Shown here: piece by piece, positions 15,448 to 42,685 of the stretch | How the letters are laid out: every line of letters starts with the position of its first letter | Position numbering within the stretch: the stretch's first letter is position 1 | Origin: a virus | Taxonomy: Duplodnaviria > Caudoviricetes | Reading direction: 5' to 3' (one strand) | IMG/VR virus record: IMGVR_UViG_3300050011_000061 | Location: 7,921 to 71,920 of that record | Length of the DNA stretch: 64,000 nt | Program-made: the position numbers and the translations under genes | Notes under the pieces: generated by a model | The model's input: only the letters and a program-made list of their open reading frames with translations | What the model was told of the DNA's origin: nothing | Databases searched by the model: none

Positions 15448-15782
15448 TAGAATACCCCTACAAATTGACCGTGGCATTCATACGAACAAAATACGTAGTT
15501 GCTTTCATAGTCTCCGTCTTCCTCTTTTATCTGTTTTCCGCAATTTGAACATTCAACAATACCGTCAAATTCAACATACGCGCCACGGCCTTGCGACGGG
15601 AATTGATATTTGGTGGGGTCAACGATTGTGCCGTCTGGTTGTTTGCACCACCAGTGCGCTTGTTCACCCCACTGCAAGCAAAAGTAATGCCCTCGAACTA
15701 ACGTCAATGTCGGGTCGGCAGCAACTAACGCTTCCGACATTTCTTTGCACTTTCCGCGATACTTGGCGTAGTCGTCGCTCAT
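15447..15782 (-). CDS. Cys-rich hypothetical protein (possible Cys-His-Asp fold plus C-terminal Zn finger)
   Basis: GKC..., HWWC, IVDPT..QF, CSNCG...FCS..C; CACAGGAG SD. Confidence 0.65.
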   Translation of the reverse strand: MSDDYAKYRGKCKEMSEALVAADPTLTLVRGHYFCLQWGEQAHWWCKQPDGTIVDPTKYQFPSQGRGAYVEFDGIVECSNCGKQIKEEDGDYESNYVFCSYECHGQFVGVF

Positions 15783-16735
15783 TTGGGCTCTCCTGTGTTG
15801 ACCCACTCCGACCCGTCAGCCATCTTATACTTAACCCACCTATCGTTTTCCGAAGCGTCGATCTGCTCGCCCGGCACTAACGACGGCAAAAACAGATGAG
15901 ACCCGCACCCAACTTGCTGCGCCTTGTAATCCAGCTCCACATCCTTCAAAGCGCACCTGACCACCGCGCCGTCTAAAAACTCTGCACTAATGCAGGTCCG
16001 GCAATTCTTCCGCGCCCATTCACCTTCGTGGCATTGCGGCCTTGAGGCGCACCAGCCACAAGGGAATGCCGCTTTGGCTGTAGGGTCTTCAAACAATTTA
16101 GAGGGAGCCGCATCGGCCCTAACAATGCGGTCGACCTTGGTTTCCAGCCTAACCGCCAGCGCATGGTCATACTCCACCCGTTCGGCGTAGCGCTCGTCGG
16201 TGTCCTTATTCACGGCGTAGTACAGGCAGCGTGTCAGACTTTGCGCGTGCATGTAAAGTTGGCATTGGGCGTAGTGGTCTGGCTTGGCGAGCTGGAGTTT
16301 CTTCTTCACAAGGTCCTTGAAGCTTTTGCTATTGTGCGACTTGGTTTCAACCACATGCAAGGTCTTGGCTGCTTCCGGTAAACCTAGAACTTGGCCGTCC
16401 AGCTTGCCGCGGAGCCATGAGTGGGCCAAAGCAACCTTGAACTGCTGACCGGTGGCCGGGTCAAGCCGTTCGACTTGGCAACCTATGGCCTCAAGGTCAT
16501 CCAATAGACGTTCTTCCCAATAGCGCCCAGTGGCGAAGATGCTTTCCTTTTTGCCTGGGTTGTCTTCCTGGCGCGGTGGGCTTGCCCAACGAAAGGCATA
16601 CCACAGCTTCCGCTCGCACTCGTCCGCCACCATCGACATACCAATACCAAGGCTGTCGCCGTGGTGGGCGTTCTTTTCGTAGGCGCTGTAGACGGCCAGG
16701 ACGGTGTGGCTGATGGGTTCGGGGAGTTCGGTCAT
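15779..16735 (-). CDS. Cas4-like PD-(D/E)XK exonuclease
   Basis: S...DECERKLWY, GKLDG, VETKS, YAQCQLYM, CGWC..C. Confidence 0.85.
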   Translation of the reverse strand: MTELPEPISHTVLAVYSAYEKNAHHGDSLGIGMSMVADECERKLWYAFRWASPPRQEDNPGKKESIFATGRYWEERLLDDLEAIGCQVERLDPATGQQFKVALAHSWLRGKLDGQVLGLPEAAKTLHVVETKSHNSKSFKDLVKKKLQLAKPDHYAQCQLYMHAQSLTRCLYYAVNKDTDERYAERVEYDHALAVRLETKVDRIVRADAAPSKLFEDPTAKAAFPCGWCASRPQCHEGEWARKNCRTCISAEFLDGAVVRCALKDVELDYKAQQVGCGSHLFLPSLVPGEQIDASENDRWVKYKMADGSEWVNTGEPK

Positions 16736-18161: not shown

Positions 18162-18962
18162 TTACGCGGCCTTGGTGACGGCGGCTGTGGGCTTTTTGCT
18201 GTTCGGGAAGAATGGCTCCATGACTTTGTACCCTTCGCCCTTTTTGTATTCCAGCTTGTCCGGCATGCCGTAGCGGTTCTTGGCTACATAGGCTGGCCGC
18301 GGCGTACAATGTATCCAGCGGTTGCCACCACCAGCGGCCCTTACGCGAGTGCCAGGGCCGGCCTTGGCCTTGGGGTCATTCTGCAACAGGCTGACGTCCT
18401 GGTTCAGCAGGAAGATGGCGTCAACTTCATCTTGCATAATGCCGACCGCACGCTTGTGCAAGCGGATGTCGTAACGCGAGTAGCTAGCGGTCATAGGATC
18501 GTTGACATTCTCGATGGTTGAGTGGGCAATATAAACAATGCCCATATTCTTGTCGCGGCGCAGGGCATTCATTCCCTCGAGGATGTCCCGCCACGCGCCG
18601 TCGGCGCTGACGTAGCCTTTGCCGTAGCCGGGCGCCTCGATATTCAACCAGCTATTGTCGGCGCAGACCTTGGCCCAAACCAACGGTTCCAGCTTGTCCA
18701 GGCTGTCGAGCACAACGGTTCTACCTTTGTGGTCCTCGGTGTAGAGCGCAGCAATCGATTCCATGACCTCTTCGTAAGTGGTCAGGCGGCCGAAGCTGGA
18801 AAGCACCAGGTCGGACGGCGTGCCGTCTTCAATCTGCAAGAAGATTGGGTCGGGAAACTCCGATGCCAATGTAGTCTTGCCGATACCCGGCGGCCCATAA
18901 ATGAGCGCACGCGGCGGCTGGGTAGCCTTGACCTGCCGAAGGTCTTTAATACTGATAGCCAT
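18162..18962 (-). CDS. AAA_24 / Sak4-like ATPase (recombinase)
   Basis: YGPPGIGKTT, VVLDSLD, GYGKGY, IAH, AKNRY. Confidence 0.88.
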   Translation of the reverse strand: MAISIKDLRQVKATQPPRALIYGPPGIGKTTLASEFPDPIFLQIEDGTPSDLVLSSFGRLTTYEEVMESIAALYTEDHKGRTVVLDSLDKLEPLVWAKVCADNSWLNIEAPGYGKGYVSADGAWRDILEGMNALRRDKNMGIVYIAHSTIENVNDPMTASYSRYDIRLHKRAVGIMQDEVDAIFLLNQDVSLLQNDPKAKAGPGTRVRAAGGGNRWIHCTPRPAYVAKNRYGMPDKLEYKKGEGYKVMEPFFPNSKKPTAAVTKAA

Positions 18963-32967: not shown

Positions 32968-32968
32968 A

Positions 32969-34099
32969 ATGACCGCTTACAAATATCCCACGGCATTCAA
33001 GCACTGGTCGCATGAGGAGTACGACGCCATCAAACGCGTCGTGGCCTCCGACTGGCTGACCATGGGGTCGGAGACCGAGGCATTCGAGATCGAGCTGGCC
33101 GCCTACAACCAACGTAAGCACGCTATCTGCTGCAACTCGGGGTCGAGTGCCAACCTGCTGGCGGTGGCTGCGATGTATCTTGTCGGCAACGGTGGTTGGC
33201 GTCCGTACTCTTGCCTAGTGCCGGCGCTGGCGTGGGCGACTACTTACGCGCCGTTGGTACAGCATAACATCGACATGCAATTGCTCGACTGTGACGACAC
33301 CTGGAACGCCTGCAATTCTAATCTCTCGGCCACGGTGGAACCATACAACTTGTACGTCGCCTGTTCGATACTGGGAAACCCGTCGCAAAAACTGATCGAC
33401 GCCGACAATGGTTTAGAGCGGGAAAAGTTTTTCTTCCTCAACGACAATTGCGAAGCTTTCGGCGCCGAAATCGACGGCCGCCCCACCGGCGCCTACGGCG
33501 ACATGGCCACGCTTTCCTTCTTCCACTCACATCAACTCTCGGCAATAGAGGGCGGCTGCGTACTGACCGACGACGACGAGCTGGCGCGGCTGTGCCGCAT
33601 CCTGCGCGACCACGGTGCTACACGGTCGGTTGAGAAAGCTAAGAAATTCGAAGACGAATATAATTTCGTTCTTTTTGGCTACAACCTTCGCCCAGCCGAG
33701 ATCAACATGGCGGTTGGCCGCGAACAGCTAAAGAAGATGGCGCTGTTCCGCACCGCGCGGCGACAGAACTGGTACCAGTTCAAGAAGCTGACCGAGGGGC
33801 TGCCGATAACAATGCCGCGGGAGAACGGGTTGATAAATCCGTTCGGGATACACTGGACCATGAACAACGAGAAGCAACGCGCCCCCTTGGTCCAGGCGTT
33901 CCGGGCCGCTGGCGTCGACTGCCGGCTACCCACCGGGGGCAGCTTTCATTTGCACGAGTACGGCAAGCCCTGGGCCGACCAGCTAACACCAAACGCCGAC
34001 CGCATCCACCGCGCTGGCTTGTTCATTGGAAATGCGCCCTACCCCATCCCTGAGCTAATCGAACTGGCGGTCGGCGTCATTGAGGAGGTACTGGAATGA
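32969..34099 (+). CDS. DegT/DnrJ-fold PLP enzyme, ColD-like NDP-4-keto-6-deoxysugar 3-dehydratase
   Basis: NSGSSANLLA, DNCE..G, SFFHSHQLSAIEGG (His at the Schiff-base Lys position), GYNLRP. Confidence 0.85.
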   Translation: MTAYKYPTAFKHWSHEEYDAIKRVVASDWLTMGSETEAFEIELAAYNQRKHAICCNSGSSANLLAVAAMYLVGNGGWRPYSCLVPALAWATTYAPLVQHNIDMQLLDCDDTWNACNSNLSATVEPYNLYVACSILGNPSQKLIDADNGLEREKFFFLNDNCEAFGAEIDGRPTGAYGDMATLSFFHSHQLSAIEGGCVLTDDDELARLCRILRDHGATRSVEKAKKFEDEYNFVLFGYNLRPAEINMAVGREQLKKMALFRTARRQNWYQFKKLTEGLPITMPRENGLINPFGIHWTMNNEKQRAPLVQAFRAAGVDCRLPTGGSFHLHEYGKPWADQLTPNADRIHRAGLFIGNAPYPIPELIELAVGVIEEVLE

Positions 34100-34305
34100 T
34101 TGAATTTTGGTGTATTACAGAAACTAAAACCAACTATATTGGAGTAGCGTCTAGCCTTGAAGGCGTAATGTACATTTTTGCTAATGCAGATCCGGCTATG
34201 GTTCAATTGGTTTTGTGCGTTGACGTTCCAAGATGTATGTACGTTTCGTCTGTATATGAAGCACAGCAGTTTTTTAAGAATCAACAGCTGGAAGGTGGGT
34301 CATGA
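34096..34305 (+). CDS. Small hypothetical protein (low GC)
   Basis: ATGA overlaps on both sides. Confidence 0.55.
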   Translation: MIEFWCITETKTNYIGVASSLEGVMYIFANADPAMVQLVLCVDVPRCMYVSSVYEAQQFFKNQQLEGGS

Positions 34306-34424
34306 AAAACGCAGAGCGACTTATCTACTTCGTCAACCACTGCGTGGTGATCGTTGTTATGCTTGCGGTGGCTACCCTGGTCTTCGGCTTTCACATTGGC
34401 CATGTCGGATGGTGGTTCAGATGA
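34302..34424 (+). CDS. Small membrane protein (40 aa)
   Basis: Read manually: MKNAERLIYFVNHCVVIVVMLAVATLVFGFHIGHVGWWFR; ATGA overlaps. Confidence 0.5.
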   Translation: MKNAERLIYFVNHCVVIVVMLAVATLVFGFHIGHVGWWFR

Positions 34425-34621
34425 GCCCATTTCACATTCACAAGTACGAGACGATGCTAGAGATGGACGACTTCCATCTGACGTGCCGCTGCGGCGACGA
34501 GTGCTCGTCCATAGCAGCCGCTCTTGGTATGACCGAGAGGTCCAAGGAGATGGTGGCCAACCGCATCGCCTGGCTGGCATTAGCGATGACTGCCATCGGG
34601 CTGGTATGGGTGGTGGCATGA
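34421..34621 (+). CDS. Small membrane protein
   Basis: MSPFHIHKY...CRCG...C-terminal TM helix; ATGA overlap with the epimerase. Confidence 0.55.
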   Translation: MSPFHIHKYETMLEMDDFHLTCRCGDECSSIAAALGMTERSKEMVANRIAWLALAMTAIGLVWVVA

Positions 34622-35550
34622 ATATATTAGTGATCGGCGGCGCCGGCTATATTGGCAGCATCCTAGTCGAGCACCTGCTCGGCCAGGGCTGCCACAAGGT
34701 TGTTGTGCTAGATAATTTTATGTACGGGCAAAATTCGTTAGCTCACCTGTGCCACAACCCCAATCTGGAGATTGTACGGGGAGATGCAAGATCGGAAGAC
34801 ACTCTGATGCCGCTAGTTCTTCGCGCTGACGCCGTGATTCCGCTGGCTGCCATCGTAGGTGCGCCGGCCTGCGATGCTGACTATGCGGCGGCTTATTCGA
34901 CAAATTACGGCGCCGTCAGAACGTTGTGCAATTTGATGGGAGACTCTCAACTCCTCGTCATTCCAGTAACGAACAGTGGTTACGGCGTCGGCACCGACGG
35001 CGAGTGTACCGAAGAGTCGCCGCTCAGTCCCATCAGCCTCTACGGCCGCCTCAAGGTGCAGGCTGAAAAGGTCGCCATGTTCCGCGCCAACTCCATCTCC
35101 CTTCGTCTCGCCACCGTATTCGGCATGTCGCCGAGAATAAGGTTGGATCTCCTTGTTAATGACTTCGTCTACCGCGCCGTGCGCGACCGCTTTATCGTGC
35201 TGTTTGAGGAGCATTTCCGGCGCAACTACGTCCACGTCCGCGACGTGGCGGACGCCTTCACGCACGCATTGACTAAGTTCGACGTCATGAGGGGCCAGGT
35301 CTACAACGTCGGCCTCAGCTCGGCCAACATTAGCAAGCGCGAGCTGGTCGTCAAGATAAAGCAGCACGTGCCGGGTTTGTTCTTTGTCGGCGCCGACGTG
35401 GGGGAAGACCCGGACAAGCGCGACTACGTGGTCAGCAACGCCAAGATTGAGGCTACCGGCTGGCGAGCAACGCGGTCGCTGGATCAGGGGATTGAGGAGC
35501 TGGTCAAGGGGTATCAGATGCTACGAGATGGAAAATACAGGAACGCATAG
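34618..35550 (+). CDS. NAD-dependent epimerase/dehydratase/reductase (extended SDR)
   Basis: True start MNILVIGGAGYIG at 34618; YGRLK catalytic motif; RLATVFG, RNYVHVRD. Confidence 0.9.
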   Translation: MNILVIGGAGYIGSILVEHLLGQGCHKVVVLDNFMYGQNSLAHLCHNPNLEIVRGDARSEDTLMPLVLRADAVIPLAAIVGAPACDADYAAAYSTNYGAVRTLCNLMGDSQLLVIPVTNSGYGVGTDGECTEESPLSPISLYGRLKVQAEKVAMFRANSISLRLATVFGMSPRIRLDLLVNDFVYRAVRDRFIVLFEEHFRRNYVHVRDVADAFTHALTKFDVMRGQVYNVGLSSANISKRELVVKIKQHVPGLFFVGADVGEDPDKRDYVVSNAKIEATGWRATRSLDQGIEELVKGYQMLRDGKYRNA

Positions 35551-35560
35551 GAGAACGAAA

Positions 35561-35899
35561 ATGGTATTTCACGTTGGGCAGAAGGTGGTGTGTGTGGATG
35601 CGGATGATACCTCAGCGCATGGGCGCAAGGAACTTAGCGAGGGATCGGTTTACACCGTGAGATGGGTTGGACAGAATGACAGAAAGCACCCTGCGCGGCC
35701 AGAATTAAGCAACACGGTTGGCGTGCGTCTTATTGAAATCCCAATCCGATCGCATGGCGATAATCCATTTAGCGCGCTGCGCTTCCGCCCTCTTGTCTCC
35801 AAATCCACCGAAACCGGCATGGCAATCCTGCGCGAAATTCTTGATCGCGAGAACGTCGACGACAAAGTCTCTGACGTCATTGAGATTGTATTTAAATGA
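35561..35899 (+). CDS. Phage hypothetical protein (F.VGQKVVCVD family)
   Basis: MVFHVGQKVVCVD...G.VYTVR...RFRPLV; AGGAG SD. Confidence 0.7.
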   Translation: MVFHVGQKVVCVDADDTSAHGRKELSEGSVYTVRWVGQNDRKHPARPELSNTVGVRLIEIPIRSHGDNPFSALRFRPLVSKSTETGMAILREILDRENVDDKVSDVIEIVFK

Positions 35900-36888
35900 T
35901 CATCTCCAAGACCCCATTCCGCATCTCGCTTTTCGGAGGTGGCTCCGACTATCCCGCTCACTTCAAGGAGCATGGTGGCGCGGTGCTGGGCTTTGCCATC
36001 GATAAGTACTGCTGGATCACAGTACGTCGACTGCCTCCCTTTTTCTCACACAAATCCAGGATCGCCTACACTAAGATTGAACTGGTCAAGGACAACGCCG
36101 ATATCGTTCACCCATCAGTCAAGGCTGTTCTCCAAACTCTCGACGCTAAGCAGGGGCTGGAGATCCACCACGACGCCGACATCCCGGCCAAGTCTGGCAT
36201 GGGATCGTCCTCGGCCTTTACGGTAGGGCTGCTCCACGCCATGGCCGCGCTCAACGGGGCCATGATCACCAAGCGGGAGCTGGCCGACCGGGCCATCCAC
36301 GTCGAGCAGGAAGTCATCAGGGAGAACGTCGGCTGCCAGGACCAGATCTGGGCGGCCTACGGCGGCCTCAACAAGATCGAGTTCTACCCAGACCGCGCCT
36401 ACTCGGTGCAGCCAGTCATTCTAAAGGAAGAGCGGCGCAAGGAGTTCGAGGCGTCGCTGGCGTTGTACTTCACCGGTTTCTCGCGCATCGCCAGTGAGGT
36501 GGCGGGTGCCCAGATAGCGCGTGCCAAGGTCAATGCCGGTCGCTTGCTGGTTATGCAGAAGATGGTAGACGACGGTCTTGGGCTACTGGCATCCGACGCA
36601 CCGCTGAGCTACTTAGGAGAGATGCTGCACCACTCGTGGATGTTCAAGCGCGAATTGGCGCCCAACATATCTGATGCAAAGATAGACGAGATCTACCAGA
36701 CCGGTCTGGCCGCGGGGGCCTGGGGCGGCAAGCTGCTGGGGGCCGGAGCTGGCGGCTTCATGCTGTTCATGGTGGGGCCAGGCGAGCGGGCTAAATTACG
36801 CGAGGCTATGCGTGGCTTAATTGAGGTAGGCGTGCGGATCGACGATGATGGTTCTAAAATAGTACTGTATCAACCGAATGGGTTGTGA
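35896..36888 (+). CDS. GHMP kinase, HddA-like (D-glycero-D-manno-heptose 7-phosphate kinase family)
   Basis: TPFRISLFGGGSD, PAKSGMGSSSA, G.QDQ, GGKLLGAGAGG. Confidence 0.88.
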   Translation: MIISKTPFRISLFGGGSDYPAHFKEHGGAVLGFAIDKYCWITVRRLPPFFSHKSRIAYTKIELVKDNADIVHPSVKAVLQTLDAKQGLEIHHDADIPAKSGMGSSSAFTVGLLHAMAALNGAMITKRELADRAIHVEQEVIRENVGCQDQIWAAYGGLNKIEFYPDRAYSVQPVILKEERRKEFEASLALYFTGFSRIASEVAGAQIARAKVNAGRLLVMQKMVDDGLGLLASDAPLSYLGEMLHHSWMFKRELAPNISDAKIDEIYQTGLAAGAWGGKLLGAGAGGFMLFMVGPGERAKLREAMRGLIEVGVRIDDDGSKIVLYQPNGL

Positions 36889-37118
36889 ACAGCGTTAAAG
36901 TGAGCTACGATATCTACGGAATAGGGAACATGACCCGCGACGAGCAGCACGCCGTTTGGATAGTTTTATCGAAGCAAATCGATGCGCTTCGTCCGCGAGT
37001 TAATGCTGCTTATGACGTTTGGAATAAATCCTGCACTGAACTTGATAAGCTGGAACGCGAACGAAGCAGACTTTGGCGTGAATGGGTCGATGAATTCAGC
37101 GAAAGTATTGCTCAGTAA
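36885..37118 (+). CDS. Hypothetical protein
   Basis: Coupled ORF ending in the first array site. Confidence 0.6.
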   Translation: MNSVKVSYDIYGIGNMTRDEQHAVWIVLSKQIDALRPRVNAAYDVWNKSCTELDKLERERSRLWREWVDEFSESIAQ

Positions 37119-37139
37119 CGGGACATTAGGGAGGCTGAC

Positions 37140-37328
37140 TTGGGAAGCGTTTGGGACGATACGCTTTGGTATCACCAACAAGAGCGGGAACGGTGGAGCA
37201 AGGAACGAGAGAAGTTGCGGGGCGCCCTAAAGGCTATTGATAAGCTGGCCGTGTCTCACCAAAAGGGCGCAATCGGAGAAGCTCAAAAAATAGCTCGCGC
37301 TGGGTTAAGGGAAACAGAACCCCAGTAA
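37140..37328 (+). CDS. Array gene, hypothetical
   Basis: TTG start after the site SD; stop in the next site. Confidence 0.65.
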   Translation: MGSVWDDTLWYHQQERERWSKEREKLRGALKAIDKLAVSHQKGAIGEAQKIARAGLRETEPQ

Positions 37329-37349
37329 TACGGAAACATGGAGGCTGAC

Positions 37350-37535
37350 TTGGCAAAAAAGAAAAAACCATCGACGCTATACATACCCGTCAAAGATTAC
37401 GGCGATGAATGGATCAACCGGCTCGCTGCGGTTTGTGTGCTTCTAGGAAAAATGAGCGGTGATGAACGGGTAGCCTGTCTTGGATTTCTACAAGGCAAAT
37501 ATAACGCCGACTGGCCGCGCGATGCTGAATATTAG
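37350..37535 (+). CDS. Array gene, hypothetical
   Basis: TTG start after GGAGG of the site. Confidence 0.6.
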   Translation: MAKKKKPSTLYIPVKDYGDEWINRLAAVCVLLGKMSGDERVACLGFLQGKYNADWPRDAEY

Positions 37536-37572
37536 AAGCGAACCACTGAATTGACAGAATATGGAGGTTGAC

Positions 37573-37854
37573 TTGAGCAAAATTTATCTCGTTCAAGGAA
37601 ATTGCGGCGAATATAGCGATTACCGAGAATGGGTCATCTGCGCCTATCGTGATGAAGCGATGGCTAAGGATCATGCAGTCCGTGCAAAACAGTGGCTTCA
37701 GCAGAATGTCACTAACGACACGCCTTATGACGAGCGCGATGAAATGAAAAATCCTTACGATTGTGCCGAGGACTATAGTTATGGGGCCGACCCTCAAACT
37801 AGTTGGACCGCCTACGGTGTCGAAATAAGGAAGTCTCTGCCGAAAGAAAAATGA
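37573..37854 (+). CDS. Array gene, hypothetical (IYLV.G..GEYSD family)
   Basis: TTG start after GGAGG; KIYLVQGNCGEYSD...W...AY..E..A. Confidence 0.7.
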   Translation: MSKIYLVQGNCGEYSDYREWVICAYRDEAMAKDHAVRAKQWLQQNVTNDTPYDERDEMKNPYDCAEDYSYGADPQTSWTAYGVEIRKSLPKEK

Positions 37855-37886
37855 ACCCCGGTAACGACTGAACATGGAGGTTAAAA

Positions 37887-38072
37887 ATGGCATTAATCCT
37901 AGGCGGCATAGTTGCCATCGGGACCGTTGTGGTTCTGGTTCTTATCATCGGAGCCGACATGATGAGCGATAATCCATCGGCGTCAATTTCGCCAGTTCCA
38001 ACTGCTGTCATAGGCTTTGGTCTTGCCGCAATTTTAATAGCAAGCCACTGGGGTCCTCATATTGGGTGGTGA
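37887..38072 (+). CDS. Array gene, 2-TM membrane protein
   Basis: Two hydrophobic helices. Confidence 0.65.
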   Translation: MALILGGIVAIGTVVVLVLIIGADMMSDNPSASISPVPTAVIGFGLAAILIASHWGPHIGW

Positions 38073-38103
38073 GCCACCATAACGTCGCGATAGGGATGCT
38101 GAG

Positions 38104-38385
38104 ATGAAACTAGACGAAGCCCACAAGAAGGTTCTTGCTGCGCTAACTGAAAGCTACAGCAGTTACGAGGACTTTTGTTTTGTGGGGTTTGCCACCGTCT
38201 GCGAAAGGACAGGTCTAGACCGAAAACAGGTACGCCGATCCTGCCGATTTTTGAAGCGCAAGGGATTGGCCACGTTTGGGCAAGGATTATGGACAGAGGC
38301 CGGTGAACCGGCTGGTAGTGGGTATGCGGCGACGAAAGACGGCGCTGCATTAGTAGAGGCGGAAACTGGAATGCAGCATTTATGA
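38104..38385 (+). CDS. Array gene, winged-helix-like protein
   Basis: F..V.ERTGLDRKQVRRSCR.LKRKGLA....GL. Confidence 0.65.
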   Translation: MKLDEAHKKVLAALTESYSSYEDFCFVGFATVCERTGLDRKQVRRSCRFLKRKGLATFGQGLWTEAGEPAGSGYAATKDGAALVEAETGMQHL

Positions 38386-38504
38386 CAGAAGGCACGATGG
38401 TCAATTCTGCTATGGGCGAGTGGGGACTGCACAACCTTCGCATATTGGTGTTTGCGATGGCGCCGCAGATCGCGTTTTGGGGACATGAAATTTAGGAGAG
38501 TGGT

Positions 38505-38840
38505 ATGGTCAAAGAAGCCAAAATGACAGCAACGGAACACACGCTGCCACCGCTCAACATATCGACGCCAGAGGCGGCGAGGAAGTCGGCTGCCAATCTT
38601 TGGAGTTGGAGAGACGGTGTTCGCGTTTACAATCGCGTTCTTTCCACCGCAGAAATAGTCGCAATCTATAATCAAGGCTATGAACTATATCACACAGAAA
38701 TAACAGACGACCTGAATCATCAACTTGATCGGGTATATCTGGATTTACTCGCCTTCACCTCACCCAACGCCCATGAAAGCGCAGCACTCCGCGAAGCCGC
38801 GCTGGCAGACATAGAAAAGTTGAAGGAAATGCTGGCATGA
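38505..38840 (+). CDS. Array gene, hypothetical with LamG-like fragment
   Basis: DGVRVYNRVLSTAEIVAIYNQG. Confidence 0.6.
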   Translation: MVKEAKMTATEHTLPPLNISTPEAARKSAANLWSWRDGVRVYNRVLSTAEIVAIYNQGYELYHTEITDDLNHQLDRVYLDLLAFTSPNAHESAALREAALADIEKLKEMLA

Positions 38841-39070
38841 CTTGGCAACCGATTGAGACGGCACCGAAGGATGGCAGCCTGATAGTATTGGCAGATTATT
38901 CCGGCTTCCGCGAACGCGGTAAAGATGGAATGTGGATTGCTACTGGGTGCTGGCTGGCCCCGGAAAGTGATCTTGAGAAAGGACGATGGTGGGATCGGAT
39001 AGAATATCTTTACACACCCACTCACTGGATGCCTCTACCAGAACCGCCAATGCTCAGTGAACCACCATAA
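38837..39070 (+). CDS. DUF551-like protein
   Basis: WQPIETAPKDG...PTHWMPLPEPP. Confidence 0.8.
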   Translation: MTWQPIETAPKDGSLIVLADYSGFRERGKDGMWIATGCWLAPESDLEKGRWWDRIEYLYTPTHWMPLPEPPMLSEPP

Positions 39071-39132
39071 CCAAATACAAGCGACGTAGCGTTGATTTCA
39101 TTGGGTTTGGGGTGGCGTAGATAGGAGCGACC

Positions 39133-39336
39133 ATGCTTCATCGCGGGCTGCATGTCTGGTCACTCAAGCGCTACTGCGTGACAGTCATGGACTGTTGGAC
39201 GCCGCTGCGACTGTTCTGGACAAGGGATGCGGCAATCCGCTGGCGCGATAAGATCGGTAAGGCTGCCAACGCCTACAGATGGCATAGTAACATTAAGACC
39301 TGGATTGAAATGTCCCGCGATTGGGACGAACAATAA
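39133..39336 (+). CDS. Array gene, hypothetical
   Basis: AGGAG SD; Trp-rich ORF. Confidence 0.55.
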   Translation: MLHRGLHVWSLKRYCVTVMDCWTPLRLFWTRDAAIRWRDKIGKAANAYRWHSNIKTWIEMSRDWDEQ

Positions 39337-39376
39337 TGAATCGACGCTCAGTAACCAGTGGTTATGGAGGTTGATT

Positions 39377-39493
39377 ATGCAACGGATGAAACGATGGTTT
39401 TATTGGCGCGTAATTTGGCTGAATGACCGAACCAATGGCCGGTATTCTCGCCTTCAATCGAGACTTTGGGTAGCCGGCTGGGGCGACTACTAA
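39377..39493 (+). CDS. Array gene, small hypothetical (38 aa)
   Basis: ATG after the site SD. Confidence 0.5.
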   Translation: MQRMKRWFYWRVIWLNDRTNGRYSRLQSRLWVAGWGDY

Positions 39494-39497
39494 TCAA

Positions 39498-39716
39498 GTG
39501 ACACCCATAGAGGAGAGGACAGGGAACGTGACCCAATTTGACCCGGACTGTGACCACATAGGCGATCTGATCGAGAGCATCCCGCCGCCGACCGAGCAGC
39601 AAATCAAAGTAGGGATGCTCGCCATTGATTATTACTACGACGGCAAAAAGGACCCTGACTTTGAAGGATCGGTAGCCTCGGTCTATCGAGCCATGAAGGC
39701 GCTAGAGCCAAAATGA
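39498..39716 (+). CDS. Array gene, hypothetical
   Basis: C-terminal V.SVYRAM.AL motif frequent in small phage proteins. Confidence 0.55.
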   Translation: MTPIEERTGNVTQFDPDCDHIGDLIESIPPPTEQQIKVGMLAIDYYYDGKKDPDFEGSVASVYRAMKALEPK

Positions 39717-39799
39717 ACCACTATGATGGCTAGACACCGAGCATTATTACATGGTGGCAAAAGCTAATGTCGATTTTTTCGACCGATTAGGAGGTTGAC

Positions 39800-40024
39800 T
39801 TGTTTCTGAAAATTCTATTCGGCATCAACATTGTCCTAGCTTGGATAATTTCGCATGGGGGCGCGTTCGCGGACGGATGCAAACCAATGTGGAGATGGCC
39901 GCGACCTGCTGGCGCGCCGGAATGGGATACAGACTTTAATGGACGCTGGCGGATGTACTTTACTTGGATTGCGACGATCATGGACGTGACGATAGCGGCG
40001 TTGCTGATACGCCACTTTGTATGA
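39800..40024 (+). CDS. Array gene, 2-TM membrane protein
   Basis: TTG start after AGGAGGTTGAC. Confidence 0.6.
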   Translation: MFLKILFGINIVLAWIISHGGAFADGCKPMWRWPRPAGAPEWDTDFNGRWRMYFTWIATIMDVTIAALLIRHFV

Positions 40025-40147
40025 ACATCGCAATGCAGCGGGTATTCGGAAGTTATGGCTGTGAAGGGGTCGCACCCCGGACGCAAGACCCATAGAGGGT
40101 GCAGCCGCCAGAATGAAGCCGGATAAGCAGCGGATAGGGAGACTTAA

Positions 40148-40360
40148 ATGAGCGAATGGCAGCCGATTGAGACAGCGCCTAAAGATGGAACCGTCGTTAG
40201 GCTTTATATTCCCGGCCATCCCGAGTTAGAGGGCATGACAGGGCGGTGGGATATGTTTTATAAAGATTGGGCAGCTCATCCTATGCCGATGACGCTTGGT
40301 AAAGAGAAGTCAGTACCAGATCCAATTTATTGGATGCCATTACCAGAGCCGCCAAAGTAA
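40148..40360 (+). CDS. DUF551-like protein (second paralogue)
   Basis: WQPIETAPKDG...P.YWMPLPEPP. Confidence 0.8.
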   Translation: MSEWQPIETAPKDGTVVRLYIPGHPELEGMTGRWDMFYKDWAAHPMPMTLGKEKSVPDPIYWMPLPEPPK

Positions 40361-40391
40361 CCCGCCATATCATCACAACTAGGAGGTTAAC

Positions 40392-40553
40392 TTGCAGGAG
40401 GAGACACTAACTACGGTGAGAGGAGAACTAGATCGCTTGCAATCTTGCGCGCGGATAATTGCTGCCAAACTATCGAAGCGCGCTGAGGCTTCTCCGCCGG
40501 CCACCCGTGAATTTCTCCGTCAACTCGCCAACGAATTGCTAGAATCGCTTTAA
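40392..40553 (+). CDS. Array gene, small helical protein (53 aa)
   Basis: Read manually: TTG start after AGGAGGTTAAC; MQEETLTTVRGELDRLQ... Confidence 0.5.
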   Translation: MQEETLTTVRGELDRLQSCARIIAAKLSKRAEASPPATREFLRQLANELLESL

Positions 40554-40607
40554 GCCGAGCGATTCTAGCAAAATGACCCACATAATTACCTGAATATGGA
40601 GGCTGCC

Positions 40608-40904
40608 GTGGAACTAGATCGAGAAGTAGAAGTTGTGGCGGATGCCCTAATGCGCGGCATGTTTGCACCTCACGAGCTTCCGCTGGATCACGATCTGGAA
40701 CAGAAATATAGAAAGCTTGCCGTCGCGGCTATAGAGGCGCTTCGCAGTTTAGAGGAAACCGCCGACGAGATCGAGCGGCTGCGGGCGGCGCTCCTGCTGG
40801 CTAAGGTTGCGCTTTACAATCCGTTTGAACCAAACAATCAATCAAATACCTACAAGCACATAGAGGCGGCGCTCGGTAATGATCAGATAGGGATGGAGGA
40901 TTGA
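40608..40904 (+). CDS. Array gene, hypothetical
   Basis: GTG start after the site SD; ADEIERLRAAL motif. Confidence 0.6.
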   Translation: MELDREVEVVADALMRGMFAPHELPLDHDLEQKYRKLAVAAIEALRSLEETADEIERLRAALLLAKVALYNPFEPNNQSNTYKHIEAALGNDQIGMED

Positions 40905-40905
40905 A

Positions 40906-41283
40906 ATGGCCGAATGGGATTTTCCAAAATACCGCGAACGTCCGACGCGATATAATCGTCATGAAGTAGTTCTTGTTGATGCCGAGAAGTATGATTCCGG
41001 ATTCCCGCAAGATGAGAACGCGCACGATTTTATCAAATGGTTAAATGATTTGATCGAGGAGGCCCCTGTTGAGTTTAGGGATTCAGTTTACATCGCATTA
41101 GATAGCGCAAGCGGCTATGAGGGCTCTCACTATGCCACTGTGAAGGTCGCTTATTTCAGGCCTGAGACTGATGAGGAATTGGGAGCAAGGATAGCTGAAT
41201 ATGAGCGTGTCAAGGCGGCAAAGGACGCTTATGACCGAGCTGAATTTCATCGCTTACAGCATAAGTTCAGCGAACATCAGTAA
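40906..41283 (+). CDS. Array gene, hypothetical
   Basis: GGAGG SD; Y.RPETDEE...E..RL..KF; stop lies in the last site. Confidence 0.7.
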   Translation: MAEWDFPKYRERPTRYNRHEVVLVDAEKYDSGFPQDENAHDFIKWLNDLIEEAPVEFRDSVYIALDSASGYEGSHYATVKVAYFRPETDEELGARIAEYERVKAAKDAYDRAEFHRLQHKFSEHQ

Positions 41284-41336
41284 TAAGCGAATATGGAGGC
41301 TGACAATGACAATGCTCATCCGTCGACTAAGAAAAC

Positions 41337-41367
41337 AAAAAAGCCCCAGCTCTTTCAAGCCGGGGCC
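41337..41367 (-). terminator. Rho-independent terminator of the leftward late operon
   Basis: Minus strand GCCCCGGCTT-GAA-AGAGCTGGGGC followed by TTTTTT, at the convergence point. Confidence 0.6.
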
Positions 41368-41440
41368 AAGTCGTCAGGGAGGTGCCCGCCGGGTGAGTAA
41401 AGCCCGACGTGCAGGTGGAAGGGCAACGGTGCCCTAATTT

Positions 41441-41932
41441 CTATCCATGAGGGTTAACAACGTGGAAGCCGCGTAAGCTGACTACGTGTATCCTTGTTCG
41501 GCCGTGCCCGCTGTTGGGGTCGTAGGCCAACACCTCGCCGTCGCCCAGCACTTCCTCAATGGCGAACACGTGCCCCCAGCGCCATGCGGCCATGCCGCGA
41601 GCTGGTGCCGCCGGAGGGAAGCGCCGCCAGTTGGCAGCTAGGTTCAGCTCCGGGATTATACGTCCGAAGATATGTAGCGAGGTGCCACAGCCGCAGAAGG
41701 CGTGCGGGCAGCCACGCGGCCTACCGCCGACGATAGATTCAACGGCACGCTCGATGTGCCTAACGGTTTCTCTCACAATCCTGGTAGGTGCGCGGTAGGT
41801 AGCCCGATCGTTACAGCCATATTGATTGCAAGTTATTGTTGCCTGACTGAGGTGATGTTTTGCTTCTGCCGGGCTGGCCAGAAGAACTGCGATGACAGTA
41901 GCGGCGAGTGCCGCCGTGATCTTAAACTTCAC
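41441..41932 (-). CDS. Secreted CHAP/NlpC-like Cys-His protein
   Basis: Signal peptide; FCGC...LA.NW...PA.GM.A....GHV...D.NSG. Confidence 0.65.
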   Translation of the reverse strand: MKFKITAALAATVIAVLLASPAEAKHHLSQATITCNQYGCNDRATYRAPTRIVRETVRHIERAVESIVGGRPRGCPHAFCGCGTSLHIFGRIIPELNLAANWRRFPPAAPARGMAAWRWGHVFAIEEVLGDGEVLAYDPNSGHGRTRIHVVSLRGFHVVNPHG

Positions 41933-42097
41933 GGTAGTCTCCTTCGTTGATTTCAGGGCAAGTTCTCTGTCCCGCCTCCTAGGGGGATTGTACTAATGAA
42001 GCTGGCAGCAATTCCAGATGCCGGCATAATAAAGCCCGATCGCGCTCACCAGAACGATGAGCGCGATCAAGAGCATTGCGCCTTGGTTGGAGAACAT

Positions 42098-42277
42098 TTA
42101 GGCGTGAACTACTGGCCCAAACACCTGCCAGCCGAGCAGACTGAACAGAACGAACTCAATCACGCCGCCGCCTGCGAAGCGCATGGCCATCGGACCGCCG
42201 ACGCCGCCGAAGTTGATGCCGAGCCACACAAGAACGCAGACGACCCAGATAACCCAAAATAACAAACCACGGGACAT
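42098..42277 (-). CDS. Small 2-TM membrane protein (59 aa)
   Basis: Read manually: MSRGLLFWVIWVVCVLVWLG...FVLFSLLGWQVFGPVVHA; AAGGAGG SD. Confidence 0.65.
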   Translation of the reverse strand: MSRGLLFWVIWVVCVLVWLGINFGGVGGPMAMRFAGGGVIEFVLFSLLGWQVFGPVVHA

Positions 42278-42328
42278 AGTAGCCTCCTTGTTGTTAGAAC
42301 CTTCTAAGCGAGGAAGAATAACGCCAGA

Positions 42329-42685
42329 CTACGGAGTAGGAGCCGGCGGGGCGACAGGTGGCGCCGGGGGCGGGGGCGTCAGCGCAGCCGCGGCAGCGGT
42401 CATTGCCTGGGTGGCTGCGGTTACCTTGGCGTCGGCAGCATCAATGGCCGGGTCCGGGCTCGCCGCTTGGGCAGCGGCGAGCGCCGCTGTGATTTCCGCA
42501 ACGCCGGCAGCGATGAGTGCCGCGACGTCGGCAGTGTACTTGTCGATCTGTGTTTGGGTAGCCATTTGGAATTTCTCCTGATTGTTTATGATAGGGGCGA
42601 GCATGTGGTATAATTCGACAACCGCAGGGCTTGCCCCGTCCAGCGGATTGGCTTTGTGATGATGCTCGTAGCCGAATAGTTGCAT
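42329..42685 (-). CDS. Ala-rich helical hypothetical protein
   Basis: ORF in the lysis region; Pro-rich tail. Confidence 0.6.
   Translation of the reverse strand: MQLFGYEHHHKANPLDGASPAVVELYHMLAPIINNQEKFQMATQTQIDKYTADVAALIAAGVAEITAALAAAQAASPDPAIDAADAKVTAATQAMTAAAAALTPPPPAPPVAPPAPTP

What the first reader, a model, noticed from the sequence alone, without database searches (positions are those of the whole stretch)
37107..41302. Candidate integron-like phage gene-cassette array delimited by 12+7+12 recombination-type sites
Seen: most junctions in this 4.2-kb run of small genes carry a same-orientation 31-bp element. Examples: 37317 GAACCCCAGTAA-tacggaa-ACATGGAGGCTG; 37853 GAACCCCGGTAA-cgactga-ACATGGAGGTTA; 38071 GAGCCACCATAA-cgtcgcg-ATAGGGATGCTG; 39343 GACGCTCAGTAA-ccagtgg-TTATGGAGGTTG; 41272 GAACATCAGTAA-taagcga-ATATGGAGGCTG. 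There are 11 good copies and about 4 degenerate ones. The arms are inverted repeats: the reverse complement of GAACCACCATAA is TTATGGTGGTTC, versus the right arm TTATGGAGGTTG. The spacer is 7 bp and variable. The left arm often supplies the upstream stop codon and the right arm supplies the downstream SD, so each unit behaves like a portable promoterless cassette. Established: inverted arms around a 6-8 bp spacer are the architecture of tyrosine-recombinase sites (dif CATAA-N6-TTATG; integron attI1 TAA-N7-TTR; loxP). Inference: this is a cassette acquisition or shuffling platform for accessory, possibly anti-defence, genes, served by a recombinase encoded elsewhere or by the host. No recombinase is visible in the window. 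An alternative is an array of repressor operators covering the SDs.
Basis: partly seen in the sequence, partly recalled or inferred. Interest (0 to 1): 0.88.

Follow-up and report, generated by a model that had tools for sequence, protein, structure and literature searches.

The report
Conserved gene-junction motif in phage ORFan array
A run of about 18 tiny genes in an uncultured peat phage is punctuated by a repeated stop-box/start-box junction sequence that also occurs between entirely different genes in other phages, so it probably acts as a shared expression signal and swap point for genes, not as an integron-type recombination site.

Summary
The repeat is real, but looser than described. 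Of 18 junctions between 36885 and 41400 (+ strand), 8 carry both arms 6-7 nt apart. One has both arms in another register. kin>g1 is degenerate. Two are left arms alone and two are right arms alone. The right arm is an extended ribosome-binding region, (A/T)YATGGAGGYTGAC plus TTG or ATG. The left arm, TGAACC[A/C]C..TAA or GCTCAGTAA, is conserved as DNA in different reading frames. The motif occurs nowhere else in the complete 71.9-kb phage genome.

The integron or Xer reading is not supported:
- no tyrosine or serine recombinase in the genome;
- no attC or dif core in the array;
- spacers unlike between copies;
- arms only 5.3 of 12 complementary;
- variant breakpoints spread over about 35 nt.

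SD-hiding RNA hairpins are not supported either.

Three junction blocks of 30-41 bp are 90-92% identical in another phage contig (G206). None of its 22 array ORFs matches any of the 17 ORFs compared here. A close relative in a permafrost run keeps the flanks but has a mosaic array whose matching pieces are mostly junction elements.

Best reading: a start/stop-associated junction element that also serves as a homology linker for gene swapping. It resembles SAS, PeSL and boundary sequences. I rate it a new variant of a known kind, of moderate interest.

The parts
36885..41400 (+). Array of about 18 small ORFs (g1-g18, 30-125 aa). It lies at the distal end of the + strand operon, after a GHMP kinase gene (35896-36888), and ends at convergent terminators.
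   Evidence: ORF lists and curated junction table. 12 of the 15 proteins scanned have no PHROG family; g9 and g14 are DUF551-like paralogues. There is no excess of promoter-like sites (15 found against 9.8 +/- 4.1 in shuffles).
36886..36933 (+). kin>g1 junction, degenerate. The left box TGAACAGCGTTAA overlaps the kinase stop; a long spacer follows; the right box is AATAGGGAACATG.
   Evidence: The stretch 36898-36927 is 90% identical to a junction in G206.
37106..37142 (+). g1>g2 junction: TATTGCTCAGTAA / cgggaca / TTAGGGAGGCTGAC + TTG.
   Evidence: The leave-one-out left-arm score is not significant for this copy (p = 0.15).
37316..37352 (+). g2>g3 junction: AGAACCCCAGTAA / tacggaa / ACATGGAGGCTGAC + TTG.
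   Evidence: The stretch 37323-37358 is 92% identical to G206 although the genes on both sides differ.
37539..37575 (+). g3>g4 junction: CGAACCACTGAAT / tgacaga / ATATGGAGGTTGAC + TTG.
   Evidence: The piece 37552-37576 follows the g9 homologue in the relative found in run X4 (tables 5 and 5c).
37852..37889 (+). g4>g5 junction: TGAACCCCGGTAA / cgactga / ACATGGAGGTTAAA + ATG. The stop codon of g4 is the TGA at the 5' end of the box.
38070..38106 (+). g5>g6 junction, variant: TGAGCCACCATAA / cgtcgc / GATAGGGATGCTGA + ATG.
   Evidence: The piece 38080-38107 is kept in the X4 relative behind a different upstream gene and a different left box (tables 5 and 7).
39058..39070 (+). Orphan left box TGAACCACCATAA at the end of g9. 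No right box lies within 50 nt.
   Evidence: Best genome-wide left-arm PWM score, 17.2; junction table.
39342..39379 (+). g10>g11 junction: CGACGCTCAGTAA / ccagtgg / TTATGGAGGTTGAT + ATG. This is the only copy with a strong hairpin.
   Evidence: RNA fold -16.4 kcal/mol, z = -3.4.
39714..39726 (+). Orphan left box TGAACCACTATGA at the end of g12.
39786..39802 (+). Right box alone before g13: ATTAGGAGGTTGAC + TTG. Position 39790 is a recurrent module boundary in metagenome variants.
   Evidence: Pieces start at 39790 in runs X4, X5 and X6, and pieces end at 40030 in X4 and X6 (tables 5 and 8).
40357..40394 (+). g14>g15 junction: GTAACCCGCCATA / tcatcaca / ACTAGGAGGTTAAC + TTG.
   Evidence: The stretch 40355-40395 is 90% identical in G206 between different genes. 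The piece 40356-40377 is joined to a different right box and gene in the X4 relative.
40574..40610 (+). g15>g16 junction: TGACCCACATAAT / tacctga / ATATGGAGGCTGCC + GTG. The left box is wholly intergenic.
40886..40908 (+). g16>g17 junction, right box only, degenerate: AGATAGGGATGGAGGATTGAA + ATG.
41271..41308 (+). g17>g18 junction: CGAACATCAGTAA / taagcga / ATATGGAGGCTGAC + ATG. It is followed only by a doubtful 30-35 aa ORF and then the terminators.
18162..18962 (-). Sak4-like AAA_24 protein, a candidate annealing/recombination protein of the phage.
   Evidence: PF13479 match, E 6.7e-40, at G000 26190-26834 on the - strand.
15779..16735 (-). Cas4-domain (RecE-like) exonuclease, a candidate partner of the recombination module.
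   Evidence: phrog_1990, E 9.9e-84.

Best explanation
The element is a lineage-specific, one-orientation gene-junction element. It has a 13-nt 'stop box' (TGAACC[A/C]C..TAA or GCTCAGTAA), a 6-8 nt free spacer, and a 14-17 nt 'start box' (A/T-rich dinucleotides, GGAGG, YTGAC, then TTG or ATG). It punctuates a hyperplastic array of ORFan genes.

Proposed working:
- The start box is the translation-initiation region of the downstream gene.
- The stop box closes the upstream frame; it carries stops in two frames.
- The same 30-45 bp blocks sit between unrelated genes, both within this genome and in other phages. They therefore serve as portable homology at which genes are replaced, lost or reordered.
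- The recombination is general or relaxed-homology, by the phage's own Sak4-like protein and Cas4-type exonuclease or by host enzymes. No site-specific recombinase is involved.

In effect it works like PeSLs or 'boundary sequences', combined with a start-associated sequence.

Shown: the element exists, is confined to the array and has bipartite conservation; junction blocks are conserved across phages while the flanking genes differ; module boundaries in metagenome variants lie at the elements; Tyr and Ser recombinases are absent.

Inferred: the translational role, and the recombination mechanism with its enzymes.
For: - Enrichment and confinement to the array.
- The left box is used in different frames or lies wholly intergenic, so it is a DNA/RNA-level unit.
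- Bipartite conservation: 0.59 / 0.37 / 0.63 against flanks of 0.35-0.37.
- Leave-one-out left-arm PWM: 10 of 11 hand-picked sites at p < 0.01.
- The start box contains the only strong SD before each ORF, with 5-6 nt to the start codon.
- In the G206 orthologue of the g2>g3 junction, identity runs from the spacer to +9 of the ORF. This is about the stretch a ribosome covers at initiation (the footprint size is recalled knowledge); the alignment is.
- G206 shares three junction blocks: 30 nt at 90%, 36 nt at 92% and 41 nt at 90%.
- Yet 0 of its 22 array ORFs match any of the 17 array ORFs compared here (best E 0.04). Only 4 small proteins are shared genome-wide.
- Run X4 holds a relative with flanks 89% (35871-36920) and 98% (41337-41833) identical. 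Its array matches only in pieces, most of which are junction elements and some of which lie in a new order: the g9 homologue is followed by the g3>g4 start box, and the g14>g15 stop box by a different start box and gene (tables 5, 5c, 7, 8).
- The g13 module boundaries 39790 and 40030 recur: 39790 in X4, X5 and X6; 40030 in X4 and X6.
- A homologous-recombination module is present.
- Literature analogues: SAS/ESAS (PMC3203893, passages read), PeSL (PMC2839356 and PMC4122927, abstracts read), boundary sequences (PMC3029335, passages read).
Against: - No experiment or RNA data exist; no RNA run was listed.
- The translational role is inferred from position only.
- The conserved YTGAC and the stop box are not explained by pairing with the 16S 3' end. 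That tail sequence is recalled, not taken from a tool.
- TTG starts are not significantly enriched: 5 of 15 in the array against 5 of 39 elsewhere, p = 0.12.
- Breakpoints at gene boundaries are also expected from illegitimate recombination followed by selection for intact genes. The comparative pattern therefore does not prove that the elements drive recombination.
- Only two comparison genomes were available, and one is known only through short aligned pieces of contigs at 80% or more likeness, several with sides under 30 nt.
- No gene is seen shared next to a shared junction between G000 and G206, so no single exchange event is caught in the act.
Confidence: 0.55

Rival explanations
1. The elements are binding sites for a phage- or host-encoded regulator, either DNA-binding (stoperator or ESAS type) or RNA-binding (translational repressor or activator), that co-regulates the array. 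Gene turnover at the junctions is then incidental.
For: - Two conserved boxes lie at a fixed 6-8 nt distance with a free spacer.
- Orientation is strictly one way, and the sites are confined to one operon.
- The consensus arms resemble an inverted repeat: reverse complements of the right arms at 39366 and 37563 score 11.4 and 9.4 on the left-arm PWM.
- Complementarity within copies is 5.3 of 12 against a null of 2.9.
- Conserved positions flanking the SD have no obvious rRNA pairing. The SAS authors argued the same for their motif and proposed a factor (PMC3203893, passages read).
- A weak HTH protein, g6, lies inside the array (PF13730, E 1.5e-4, below the cut-off).
- 90% conservation of junction blocks between otherwise dissimilar phages would fit a shared factor.
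Against: - No candidate binding protein is identified.
- Only 4 small proteins are shared between the two phages that share junctions.
- The two left-box classes (GAACCNC and GCTCAGTAA) differ in sequence.
- Several junctions carry only one box.
Confidence: 0.2
2. The left box is an anti-SD that pairs with the SD of the next gene. The downstream gene is then translated only when a ribosome finishing the upstream gene opens the hairpin (translational coupling).
For: - The left box is C-rich (CCNCC) and the right box is GGAGG.
- Folds of several copies pair AACC/GGUU and CC/GG around a 7-9 nt loop.
- The g10>g11 copy folds strongly: -16.4 kcal/mol, z = -3.4.
- Stop codons lie inside or next to the left box.
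Against: - 10 of 11 folds are no better than dinucleotide shuffles (z from -1.9 to +1.0).
- The probability that the SD pairs with upstream sequence is not above shuffles (Stouffer z = 0.2).
- It is also not above other genes of the genome: 0.35 in the array against 0.43 elsewhere, Mann-Whitney p = 0.27.
- The middle position opposite the A of GGAGG is A, C or G in the window copies, never T.
- Orphan boxes exist.
Confidence: 0.08
3. One reading: core-type sites of a tyrosine recombinase (integron-, Xer- or Cre-like), supplied by the host or another element, which insert, excise and shuffle cassettes by site-specific recombination.
For: - The geometry is 12-13 + 7 + 12-14, with weak dyad symmetry.
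- The genes sit in one orientation without their own promoters.
- Gene content differs between relatives at the junctions.
Against: - No PF00589 or PF00239 in the complete G000 genome, and no PF00589 in G206.
- No dif inner core in the genome, and no attC core pair in the array.
- Spacers are unlike between copies (0.37). Crossover between different copies would therefore fail for classical tyrosine recombinases (recalled knowledge).
- No single copy has both the CATAA and the TTATG halves.
- Breakpoints in the X4 relative and G206 fall in the left box, at either spacer edge, just before the SD, or inside the ORF start. They are not at one position.
- The composite pattern was found in only 1 other IMG/VR contig, a single hit in a 71% GC locus.
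Confidence: 0.05
4. There is no element. The pattern is just stop codons next to strong Shine-Dalgarno sequences in tightly packed genes.
For: The highest-information positions are GGAGG and TAA. Some copies are weak: the g1>g2 left arm has p = 0.15.
Against: - GAACC[AC]C is enriched about tenfold; 0 of 1000 shuffles reach the observed count.
- The left-box TAA is not the stop in 6 of 10 boxes.
- The distance TAA-N11-GGAGG is fixed in 5 copies, found only in the array.
- YTGAC is conserved after the SD.
- 30-41 bp blocks recur in G206 at 90-92% identity.
- Searches of 50,697 GenBank phages gave only chance matches of 27 nt or less.
Confidence: 0.03

Closest known systems
PeSLs (promoter-early stem-loops) of T4-type phages (Arbiol et al. 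2010, PMC2839356; Comeau et al. 2014, PMC4122927; abstracts read)
   Same: Both are short composite regulatory motifs repeated between small non-essential ORFan genes in hyperplastic regions. Insertions, deletions and replacements between relatives map to them. The proposed mechanism is homologous recombination between copies, with no dedicated recombinase.
   Different: A PeSL is a sigma-70 promoter plus a terminator stem-loop. This element has no promoter-like excess and no significant stem-loop in 10 of 11 copies. It is a stop box plus a ribosome-binding or start box inside a polycistronic unit. Mini-circles are not tested here. The phage is not T4-like: it is about 72 kb, and its DNA polymerase is under 45% identical to any GenBank phage.
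Start-associated sequences (SAS) and extended SAS (ESAS) of Cluster K mycobacteriophages (Pope et al. 2011, PMC3203893; passages of section 15 read)
   Same: Both are asymmetric motifs containing the SD, a few nt upstream of start codons, sometimes overlapping the upstream stop. They lie in one orientation, are confined to the non-structural part of the genome, and are conserved in front of genes of different families across related phages. Conserved positions have no rRNA pairing. An upstream second motif is separated by a variable spacer. RNA hairpins are not supported. Function is unknown.
   Different: The consensus differs. The SAS consensus GGGATAGGAGCCC is quoted in the paper. Only the minor class here (GATAGGAGC before g10, ATAGGAGCC in G206) shares 9 of its 13 letters. 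ESAS has two 17-bp inverted repeats upstream of the SAS, whereas here a single 13-nt box pairs weakly with the start box itself. The host lineage differs (probably Alphaproteobacteria). TTG starts are common here, whereas ATG dominates at SAS.
Short conserved boundary sequences of lambdoid phages (modular theory; cited as refs 21 and 22 in PMC3029335, passages read; the original HK620 paper was not seen)
   Same: Short conserved sequences at gene boundaries, proposed to allow homologous recombination between otherwise unrelated modules.
   Different: There they are rare and found at few mosaic joints. Here a single motif family marks most junctions of one array and includes the translation signals.
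Integron attC/attI cassette arrays and Xer (dif) sites
   Same: A one-orientation array of small promoterless genes, each followed by an imperfectly symmetric site, with variable gene content between relatives.
   Different: There is no integrase. The site is 31-38 bp, not 57-141 bp. There is no RYYYAAC/GTTRRRY or CATAA/TTATG core, no fixed crossover point, and the spacers are not shared. The attC and dif definitions are recalled knowledge.
Stoperators of mycobacteriophage L5 (Cluster A), as described in PMC3203893 and PMC3029335 (passages read)
   Same: Many copies of a 13-bp asymmetric site in one orientation, in short intergenic gaps of an operon.
   Different: Stoperators are single boxes bound by the prophage repressor and act on transcription. 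This phage has no identified repressor or integrase, and its element is bipartite and includes the SD.

Membership tests
Integron (IntI + attI/attC cassette array) | A tyrosine recombinase (IntI) encoded next to the array | tested here: not met
   PF00589: 0 matches at E <= 0.1 in the complete 71,920-bp genome, with 14 of 14 control genomes positive. G206 also has 0 matches.
Integron (IntI + attI/attC cassette array) | attC sites: imperfect palindromes of about 57-141 bp with R'' RYYYAAC and R' GTTRRRY cores (definition recalled) | tested here: not met
   Regex scan: 0 such pairs in the array on either strand. The elements are 31-38 bp.
Integron (IntI + attI/attC cassette array) | Cassette boundaries at one fixed position in the site | tested here: not met
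   Breakpoints against the X4 relative and G206 fall in the left box (38080, 40030, 40356), at the left box/spacer edge (37552, g2>g3), just 5' of the SD (39790, 40377), or inside the ORF start. The end positions of alignments are approximate.
Integron (IntI + attI/attC cassette array) | Promoterless cassettes in one orientation | tested here: met
   All ORFs are on the + strand. Promoter-like sites number 15 against 9.8 +/- 4.1 in shuffles over 26000-42500.
Xer/dif-type or Cre/FLP-type core site | Two inverted 11-13 bp arms with a conserved inner core (dif: CATAA-N6-TTATG; recalled) | tested here: not met
   0 matches to CATAA-N6-8-TTATG in the genome. Arms are 5.3 of 12 complementary within copies.
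Xer/dif-type or Cre/FLP-type core site | Identical central (overlap) region in sites that recombine with each other (recalled) | tested here: not met
   Spacer pairwise identity is 0.37, equal to the flank background of 0.35-0.37.
PeSL (T4-type phages) | A strong sigma-70-like early promoter in the motif | tested here: not met
   No promoter-like site coincides with the elements and there is no excess.
PeSL (T4-type phages) | A stem-loop that terminates transcription | tested here: not met
   10 of 11 junction folds are not better than shuffles. The terminator-like hits of the scan lie elsewhere, except a weak one at 39779-39798.
PeSL (T4-type phages) | The motif lies between ORFan genes of a hyperplastic region, and indels or replacements between relatives map to it | tested here: met
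   Only two comparison genomes were available.
PeSL (T4-type phages) | Recombination between copies yields mini-circles | not testable with these tools
   The laid runs are contigs, not reads. No circle junction can be seen.
SAS/ESAS (Cluster K mycobacteriophages) | An asymmetric motif containing the SD, 3-8 nt before start codons, in one orientation, in the non-structural region only | tested here: met
SAS/ESAS (Cluster K mycobacteriophages) | Consensus 5'-GGGATAGGAGCCC (quoted in PMC3203893) | tested here: not met
   The main class is (A/T)YATGGAGGYTGAC. Only the minor class shares GATAGGAGC or ATAGGAGCC.
SAS/ESAS (Cluster K mycobacteriophages) | Conserved across related phages in front of genes of different families | tested here: met
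   G206 and the X4 relative carry the same blocks before different genes.
Stoperator (L5-type repressor sites) | Bound by a phage repressor that blocks transcription elongation | not testable with these tools
   No repressor is identified. g6 has only a sub-threshold HTH hit.

The most novel reading that the evidence does not exclude
The stop-box/start-box blocks are the fixed scaffold of a junction-guided gene-exchange system shared by otherwise unrelated phages of peat Alphaproteobacteria. An as yet unknown factor that is neither a tyrosine nor a serine recombinase would recognise or preferentially anneal the blocks; candidates are the Sak4-like/Cas4-exonuclease module or a small shared protein. 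ORFan genes would then be swapped as cassettes between phage lineages. In effect this would be an 'integron without an integrase', whose sites double as the translation signals of the cargo.
Probability: 0.12. Interest if true: 0.8.

Novelty: new variant of a known kind. Interest (0 to 1): 0.5.

Why it matters
Phage genomes hold large numbers of small fast-turnover genes, and how these are gained and lost without wrecking expression is poorly understood outside T4-like phages (PeSLs). In this uncultured myovirus-like phage, the conserved unit between two dissimilar phages is the 30-45 bp junction carrying the stop and start signals, not the genes.

If such junctions generally act both as plug-in expression adaptors and as homology for exchange, two things would follow. 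They would explain how ORFan arrays stay expressed while their content turns over. They would also give a sequence handle for finding exchangeable accessory-gene arrays in metagenomic phages. The parallel with the still unexplained SAS/ESAS motifs suggests this class of element may be widespread and under-described.

Tried and rejected
1. SD-sequestering hairpins. Folds of 11 junctions, SD pairing against shuffled upstream sequence and against non-array genes gave no support.

2. Coding explanation for the right box. The ATG inside AYATGGAGG is in frame with the TTG/GTG start in g3, g4 and g16, and one database gene call starts there (P0124). Three facts reject the idea: g2, g13 and g15 lack that ATG; in g5, g11 and g18 it is out of frame; and it has no SD of its own.

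3. Coding explanation for the left box (Glu-Pro-Pro/Gln-stop, as at DUF551 C-termini). It fits g2, g9 and g17. It fails for the copies that use the TGA or are intergenic.

4. Promoter reading. There is no excess of sigma-70-like sites and none at the elements.

5. Host translation signal. The 12-mer ATGGAGGYTGAC was absent from 5 alphaproteobacterial MAGs. In 201 genomes of one family, 78 had any hit, at most 4 per genome and never clustered. The host is not known, so this is only a sample.

6. Array DNA in 121 genomes of that family. Two genomes gave 32-35 nt hits, both in the g16 coding region, and 119 gave none.

7. Known RNA families in 36000-42000. Nothing matched at the elements.

8. Search for relatives.
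- The GHMP kinase route gave 80 metagenome loci and 39 genome loci, all at about 43-71% identity and without the motif.
- The DNA polymerase gave 2 IMG/VR loci at about 52%.
- The g13 protein gave 1 locus, L169, at 70%, with a different junction motif.
- The protein at 41441-41932 gave 15 loci sharing essentially only that gene; one or two extra weak matches occurred in 3 of them.
- P0131, a g9-like protein, gave L231, which lacks the motif.
- Array DNA against GenBank phages gave no match.
- The composite pattern in IMG/VR gave 1 hit, in a 71% GC locus.
- The 15-mer right box gave 80 listed loci (83 stretches reported), each with a single exact match. A PWM rescan of all 307 stored loci singled out L087 (G206) with 3 strong hits. 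L136 has one hit, followed directly by a stop codon, and was judged chance.
- The 21-mer from the g14>g15 junction found only G206.

9. Exact cluster look-up of g1-g10. Clusters hold only near-identical copies plus P0131. Nothing lies on the 72,249-bp contig that carries the 95%-identical kinase P0001. That contig could not be fetched.

10. RNA evidence. No RNA holder was listed, so nothing can be said on expression.

11. TTG start enrichment is not significant.

12. The sRNA-like element next to the array has no counterpart in G206.

13. Earlier scan notes. Nothing on look-alike stretches. Notes on other parts of this genome did not bear on the element.

14. Supplementary files of the SAS paper (Figs S3, S4) were not opened. 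They may hold further site alignments relevant to the comparison.

Full report
CONTEXT. The window is part of an IMG/VR virus record of 71,920 bp. CheckV rates it 100% complete, and a script found a 127-bp exact repeat at the two ends. The record encodes a portal, large terminase, tail sheath, tape measure, DNA polymerase, primase and helicase. No GenBank phage has a DNA polymerase more than 45% identical, and the array DNA has no GenBank phage match. Near-identical DNA is held by peat and permafrost metagenome runs.

The finding lies at the distal end of a + strand unit. That unit carries sugar-modification genes and ends with a GHMP kinase (35896-36888). The kinase is about 60% identical to proteins that sources name as Xanthobacteraceae, and up to 71% identical to one alphaproteobacterial MAG. 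After the kinase come about 18 small ORFs (g1-g18, 36885-41400), followed by convergent terminators. Of the 15 array proteins scanned, 12 have no PHROG family. g9 and g14 are DUF551-like paralogues, g17 has a weak hit, and g6 has a sub-threshold HTH hit.

OBSERVATION. The five quoted examples are exact. Anchoring on the SD shows a start box, (A/T)YAT-GGAGG-YTGAC followed by TTG or ATG, at 37130, 37340, 37563, 37876, 39366, 39790, 40382, 40598 and 41295. Variants occur at 38093 and 40895. Only 36 GGAGG-plus-start sites exist in the whole genome; 10 of them lie in these 4.5 kb and share this context.

A stop box lies 6-8 nt upstream in 8 junctions: TGAACC[A/C]C..TAA, or GCTCAGTAA in two copies. 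Two further stop boxes stand alone, at 39058 and 39714.

Enrichment is clear.
- GAACC[AC]C occurs 5 times against 0.46 expected; 0 of 1000 shuffles reach 5.
- GGAGGYT[GA]A occurs 8 times against 0.11 expected.
- All five forward-strand TAA-N11-GGAGG hits of the genome are in the array.
- A whole-element PWM finds strong hits nowhere else in the genome. The PWM was trained on these copies.

The stop box is not merely a stop codon. Its terminal TAA is the stop in 4 cases, its initial TGA in 3, and in 3 cases the box is wholly intergenic. Conservation is bipartite: 0.59 in the left box, 0.37 in the spacer and 0.63 in the right box, against 0.35-0.37 in the flanks.

THE INVERTED REPEAT. Within copies the arms are 5.3 of 12 complementary, against 2.9 for random left arms. 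The consensus arms do resemble each other in reverse complement: two right arms score 11.4 and 9.4 on the left-arm PWM. As RNA, 10 of 11 junctions fold no better than shuffles, and only g10>g11 is strong. The SD is not more often paired with upstream sequence than in shuffles (Stouffer z = 0.2) or than at other genes (0.35 against 0.43). An SD-hiding hairpin is thus unsupported.

SITE-SPECIFIC RECOMBINATION. The evidence is against it.
- No tyrosine or serine recombinase domain is found in the complete genome; the controls were positive.
- No dif-type core is found in the genome and no attC-type core pair in the array.
- Spacers are unlike between copies. By recalled knowledge of Cre, FLP, lambda Int and Xer, this blocks exchange between such sites.
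- The composite pattern is found in one other IMG/VR contig only, as a single hit in a 71% GC locus.

COMPARATIVE EVIDENCE. Three sources bear on gene turnover.

(a) Run X4 (contigs) holds this phage at depth of about 30-50. It also holds a much more abundant relative, at depth of about 590-780. The relative's flanks are 89% identical (35871-36920, 114 other letters) and 98% identical (41337-41833, 10 other letters). Its array aligns only in pieces: 38080-38107, 38545-38587, 38819-39048, 37552-37576, 39512-39532, 39790-40030 and 40356-40377 (tables 5, 5c, 7, 8). Read against the window, the pieces are as follows:
- 38080-38107, 37552-37576 and 40356-40377 lie in junction elements;
- 39512-39532 is the ribosome-binding region of g12;
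- 39790-40030 is g13 with its start box;
- 38819-39048 is g9;
- 38545-38587 is inside g8.

The order differs from the window. The g9 homologue is followed by 17 other letters and then by the spacer and start box of the g3>g4 junction. The g14>g15 stop box is followed by a different start box (of the GGGATGCTGAC type) and a different gene. The g5>g6 spacer and start box follow a different gene that has its own GAACC-type stop box.

The g13 module is bounded at 39790 and 40030 in X4. The same left end is seen in X5, and both ends in X6.

Caveats: several sides are shorter than 30 nt, likeness was set to 80%, and the letters between most joints are not known.

(b) A PWM rescan of all 307 stored loci singled out L087. 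It belongs to IMG/VR contig G206 (39,794 bp), whose ends overlap by about 130 bp. G206 has its own array of about 22 small ORFs upstream of a convergent homologue of the gene at 41441-41932 (67% over 111 aa). It shares only 4 small proteins with this phage. None of its 22 array ORFs matches any of the 17 array ORFs compared here (g1-g17; best blastp E 0.04). Yet three junction blocks match:
- 36898-36927: 30 nt, 90%;
- 37323-37358: 36 nt, 92%;
- 40355-40395: 41 nt, 90%.

The edges of identity are sharp and lie at the gene boundaries. In the g2>g3 block, identity runs from the spacer to +9 of the ORF. G206 has no PF00589 domain.

The same blocks give only chance matches of 27 nt or less in 50,697 GenBank phage records. 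They are not found in 121 genomes of the candidate host family.

(c) Exact cluster look-ups show no homologue at 90% or above of g1 or g4-g10 on the contig that carries the 95%-identical kinase.

INTERPRETATION. The junction blocks are better conserved than the genes they separate, both within this lineage and in a dissimilar phage. Module boundaries in natural variants lie in or at the edge of the blocks, but at scattered positions. The start box occupies exactly the ribosome-binding region. The phage carries a Sak4-like protein and a Cas4-type exonuclease; Sak4 is described as a single-strand annealing protein in PMC5928155 (title and abstract start seen in a search listing).

The most economical model is a start/stop-associated junction element that provides portable expression signals and, being repeated, provides homology for modular exchange. 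It is a functional analogue of three known things: PeSLs (PMC2839356, PMC4122927), the 'short conserved boundary sequences' of the modular theory (PMC3029335), and the SAS/ESAS motifs of Cluster K mycobacteriophages (PMC3203893), whose function is also unknown.

Selection for intact genes after illegitimate recombination would also place breakpoints at gene boundaries. A causal role of the elements in recombination is therefore inferred, not shown. A regulator-binding role remains a serious rival.

VERDICT. The feature is real, the integron reading is not supported, and the element is a new variant of a known kind. Confidence in the best explanation is 0.55 and interest is 0.5.

Noticed in passing
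window 41328-41431 (- strand): An sRNA-like element lies between the array and the convergent gene 41441-41932: a hairpin, a single-stranded CACCUCCCUGA (anti-SD-like seed), then a terminator with a U-tail. Its Rfam matches are below the gathering score: mmgR/suhB RF00519 at 33.2 bits (GA 41) and SorX RF02784 at 30.7 bits (GA 46.6). It could be a 3'UTR-derived sRNA able to pair with strong GGGAGG SDs such as that of g2. No counterpart was found in G206.
   Followed up: partly
L182 (IMG/VR contig of 125,536 bp), reverse complement of the locus, positions 492-8275: A different repeated junction element occurs in 8 + strand copies, plus 2 on the other strand. It is a hairpin with a conserved TTCGCAG loop and stems that differ between copies while keeping pairing, then about 9 nt, then AAGGAGACC, then 4-7 nt and ATG. 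This is another phage with a stereotyped gene-junction motif.
   Followed up: no
L169 (IMG/VR contig of 11,883 bp), positions 200-900: A g13 homologue (70% aa) is followed by a g5-like membrane protein. Three junctions there share another motif, TAGGAGTGCRGCG(A/G)TG or TAGGATAGCGGCGATG. Related gene pairs thus occur with a different junction sequence.
   Followed up: partly
window 38837-39070 and 40148-40360: g9 and g14 are DUF551-like paralogues. Their C-terminal Pro-Glu-Pro-Pro codons read GAACCGCC or GAGCCGCC, close to the stop-box core GAACCNCC. The stop box may have begun as the 3' end of such a gene.
   Followed up: partly
window 37338, 37561, 40596: The ATG inside the start box is in frame with the TTG/GTG start of g3, g4 and g16. 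At least one database gene call starts there (P0124, MEVDLSK...). Automatic annotation of these genes is probably 4 codons too long.
   Followed up: yes
G206 (L311/L312), contig ends: The two ends of this 39,794-bp 'linear, 76% complete' IMG/VR contig overlap by about 130 bp with one mismatch, inside its ORFan array. The record is probably a circular or terminally redundant assembly, and more complete than rated.
   Followed up: partly
L173 (IMG/VR contig of 103,399 bp), reverse complement, positions 2500-2850: A tandem array of about 12 copies of a 24-bp unit (GAACTCTAGCGTCGTAGCCTGGGG-like).
   Followed up: no
window 15205-15477 (- strand): A 90-aa ORF between the helicase and the Cas4-type exonuclease is one of only four proteins shared with G206 (50% over 70 aa), where its homologue sits at the head of the ORFan array. 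It has no known family. It is a candidate for a factor linked to the arrays.
   Followed up: no
run X4, places 38842 and 42319: The abundant relative has a 12-nt in-frame insertion (a repeat of the preceding TGGCAACCGAT-type codons) at the start of its g9 homologue. It also has a 28-nt insertion with a GC-rich hairpin near 42319.
   Followed up: no
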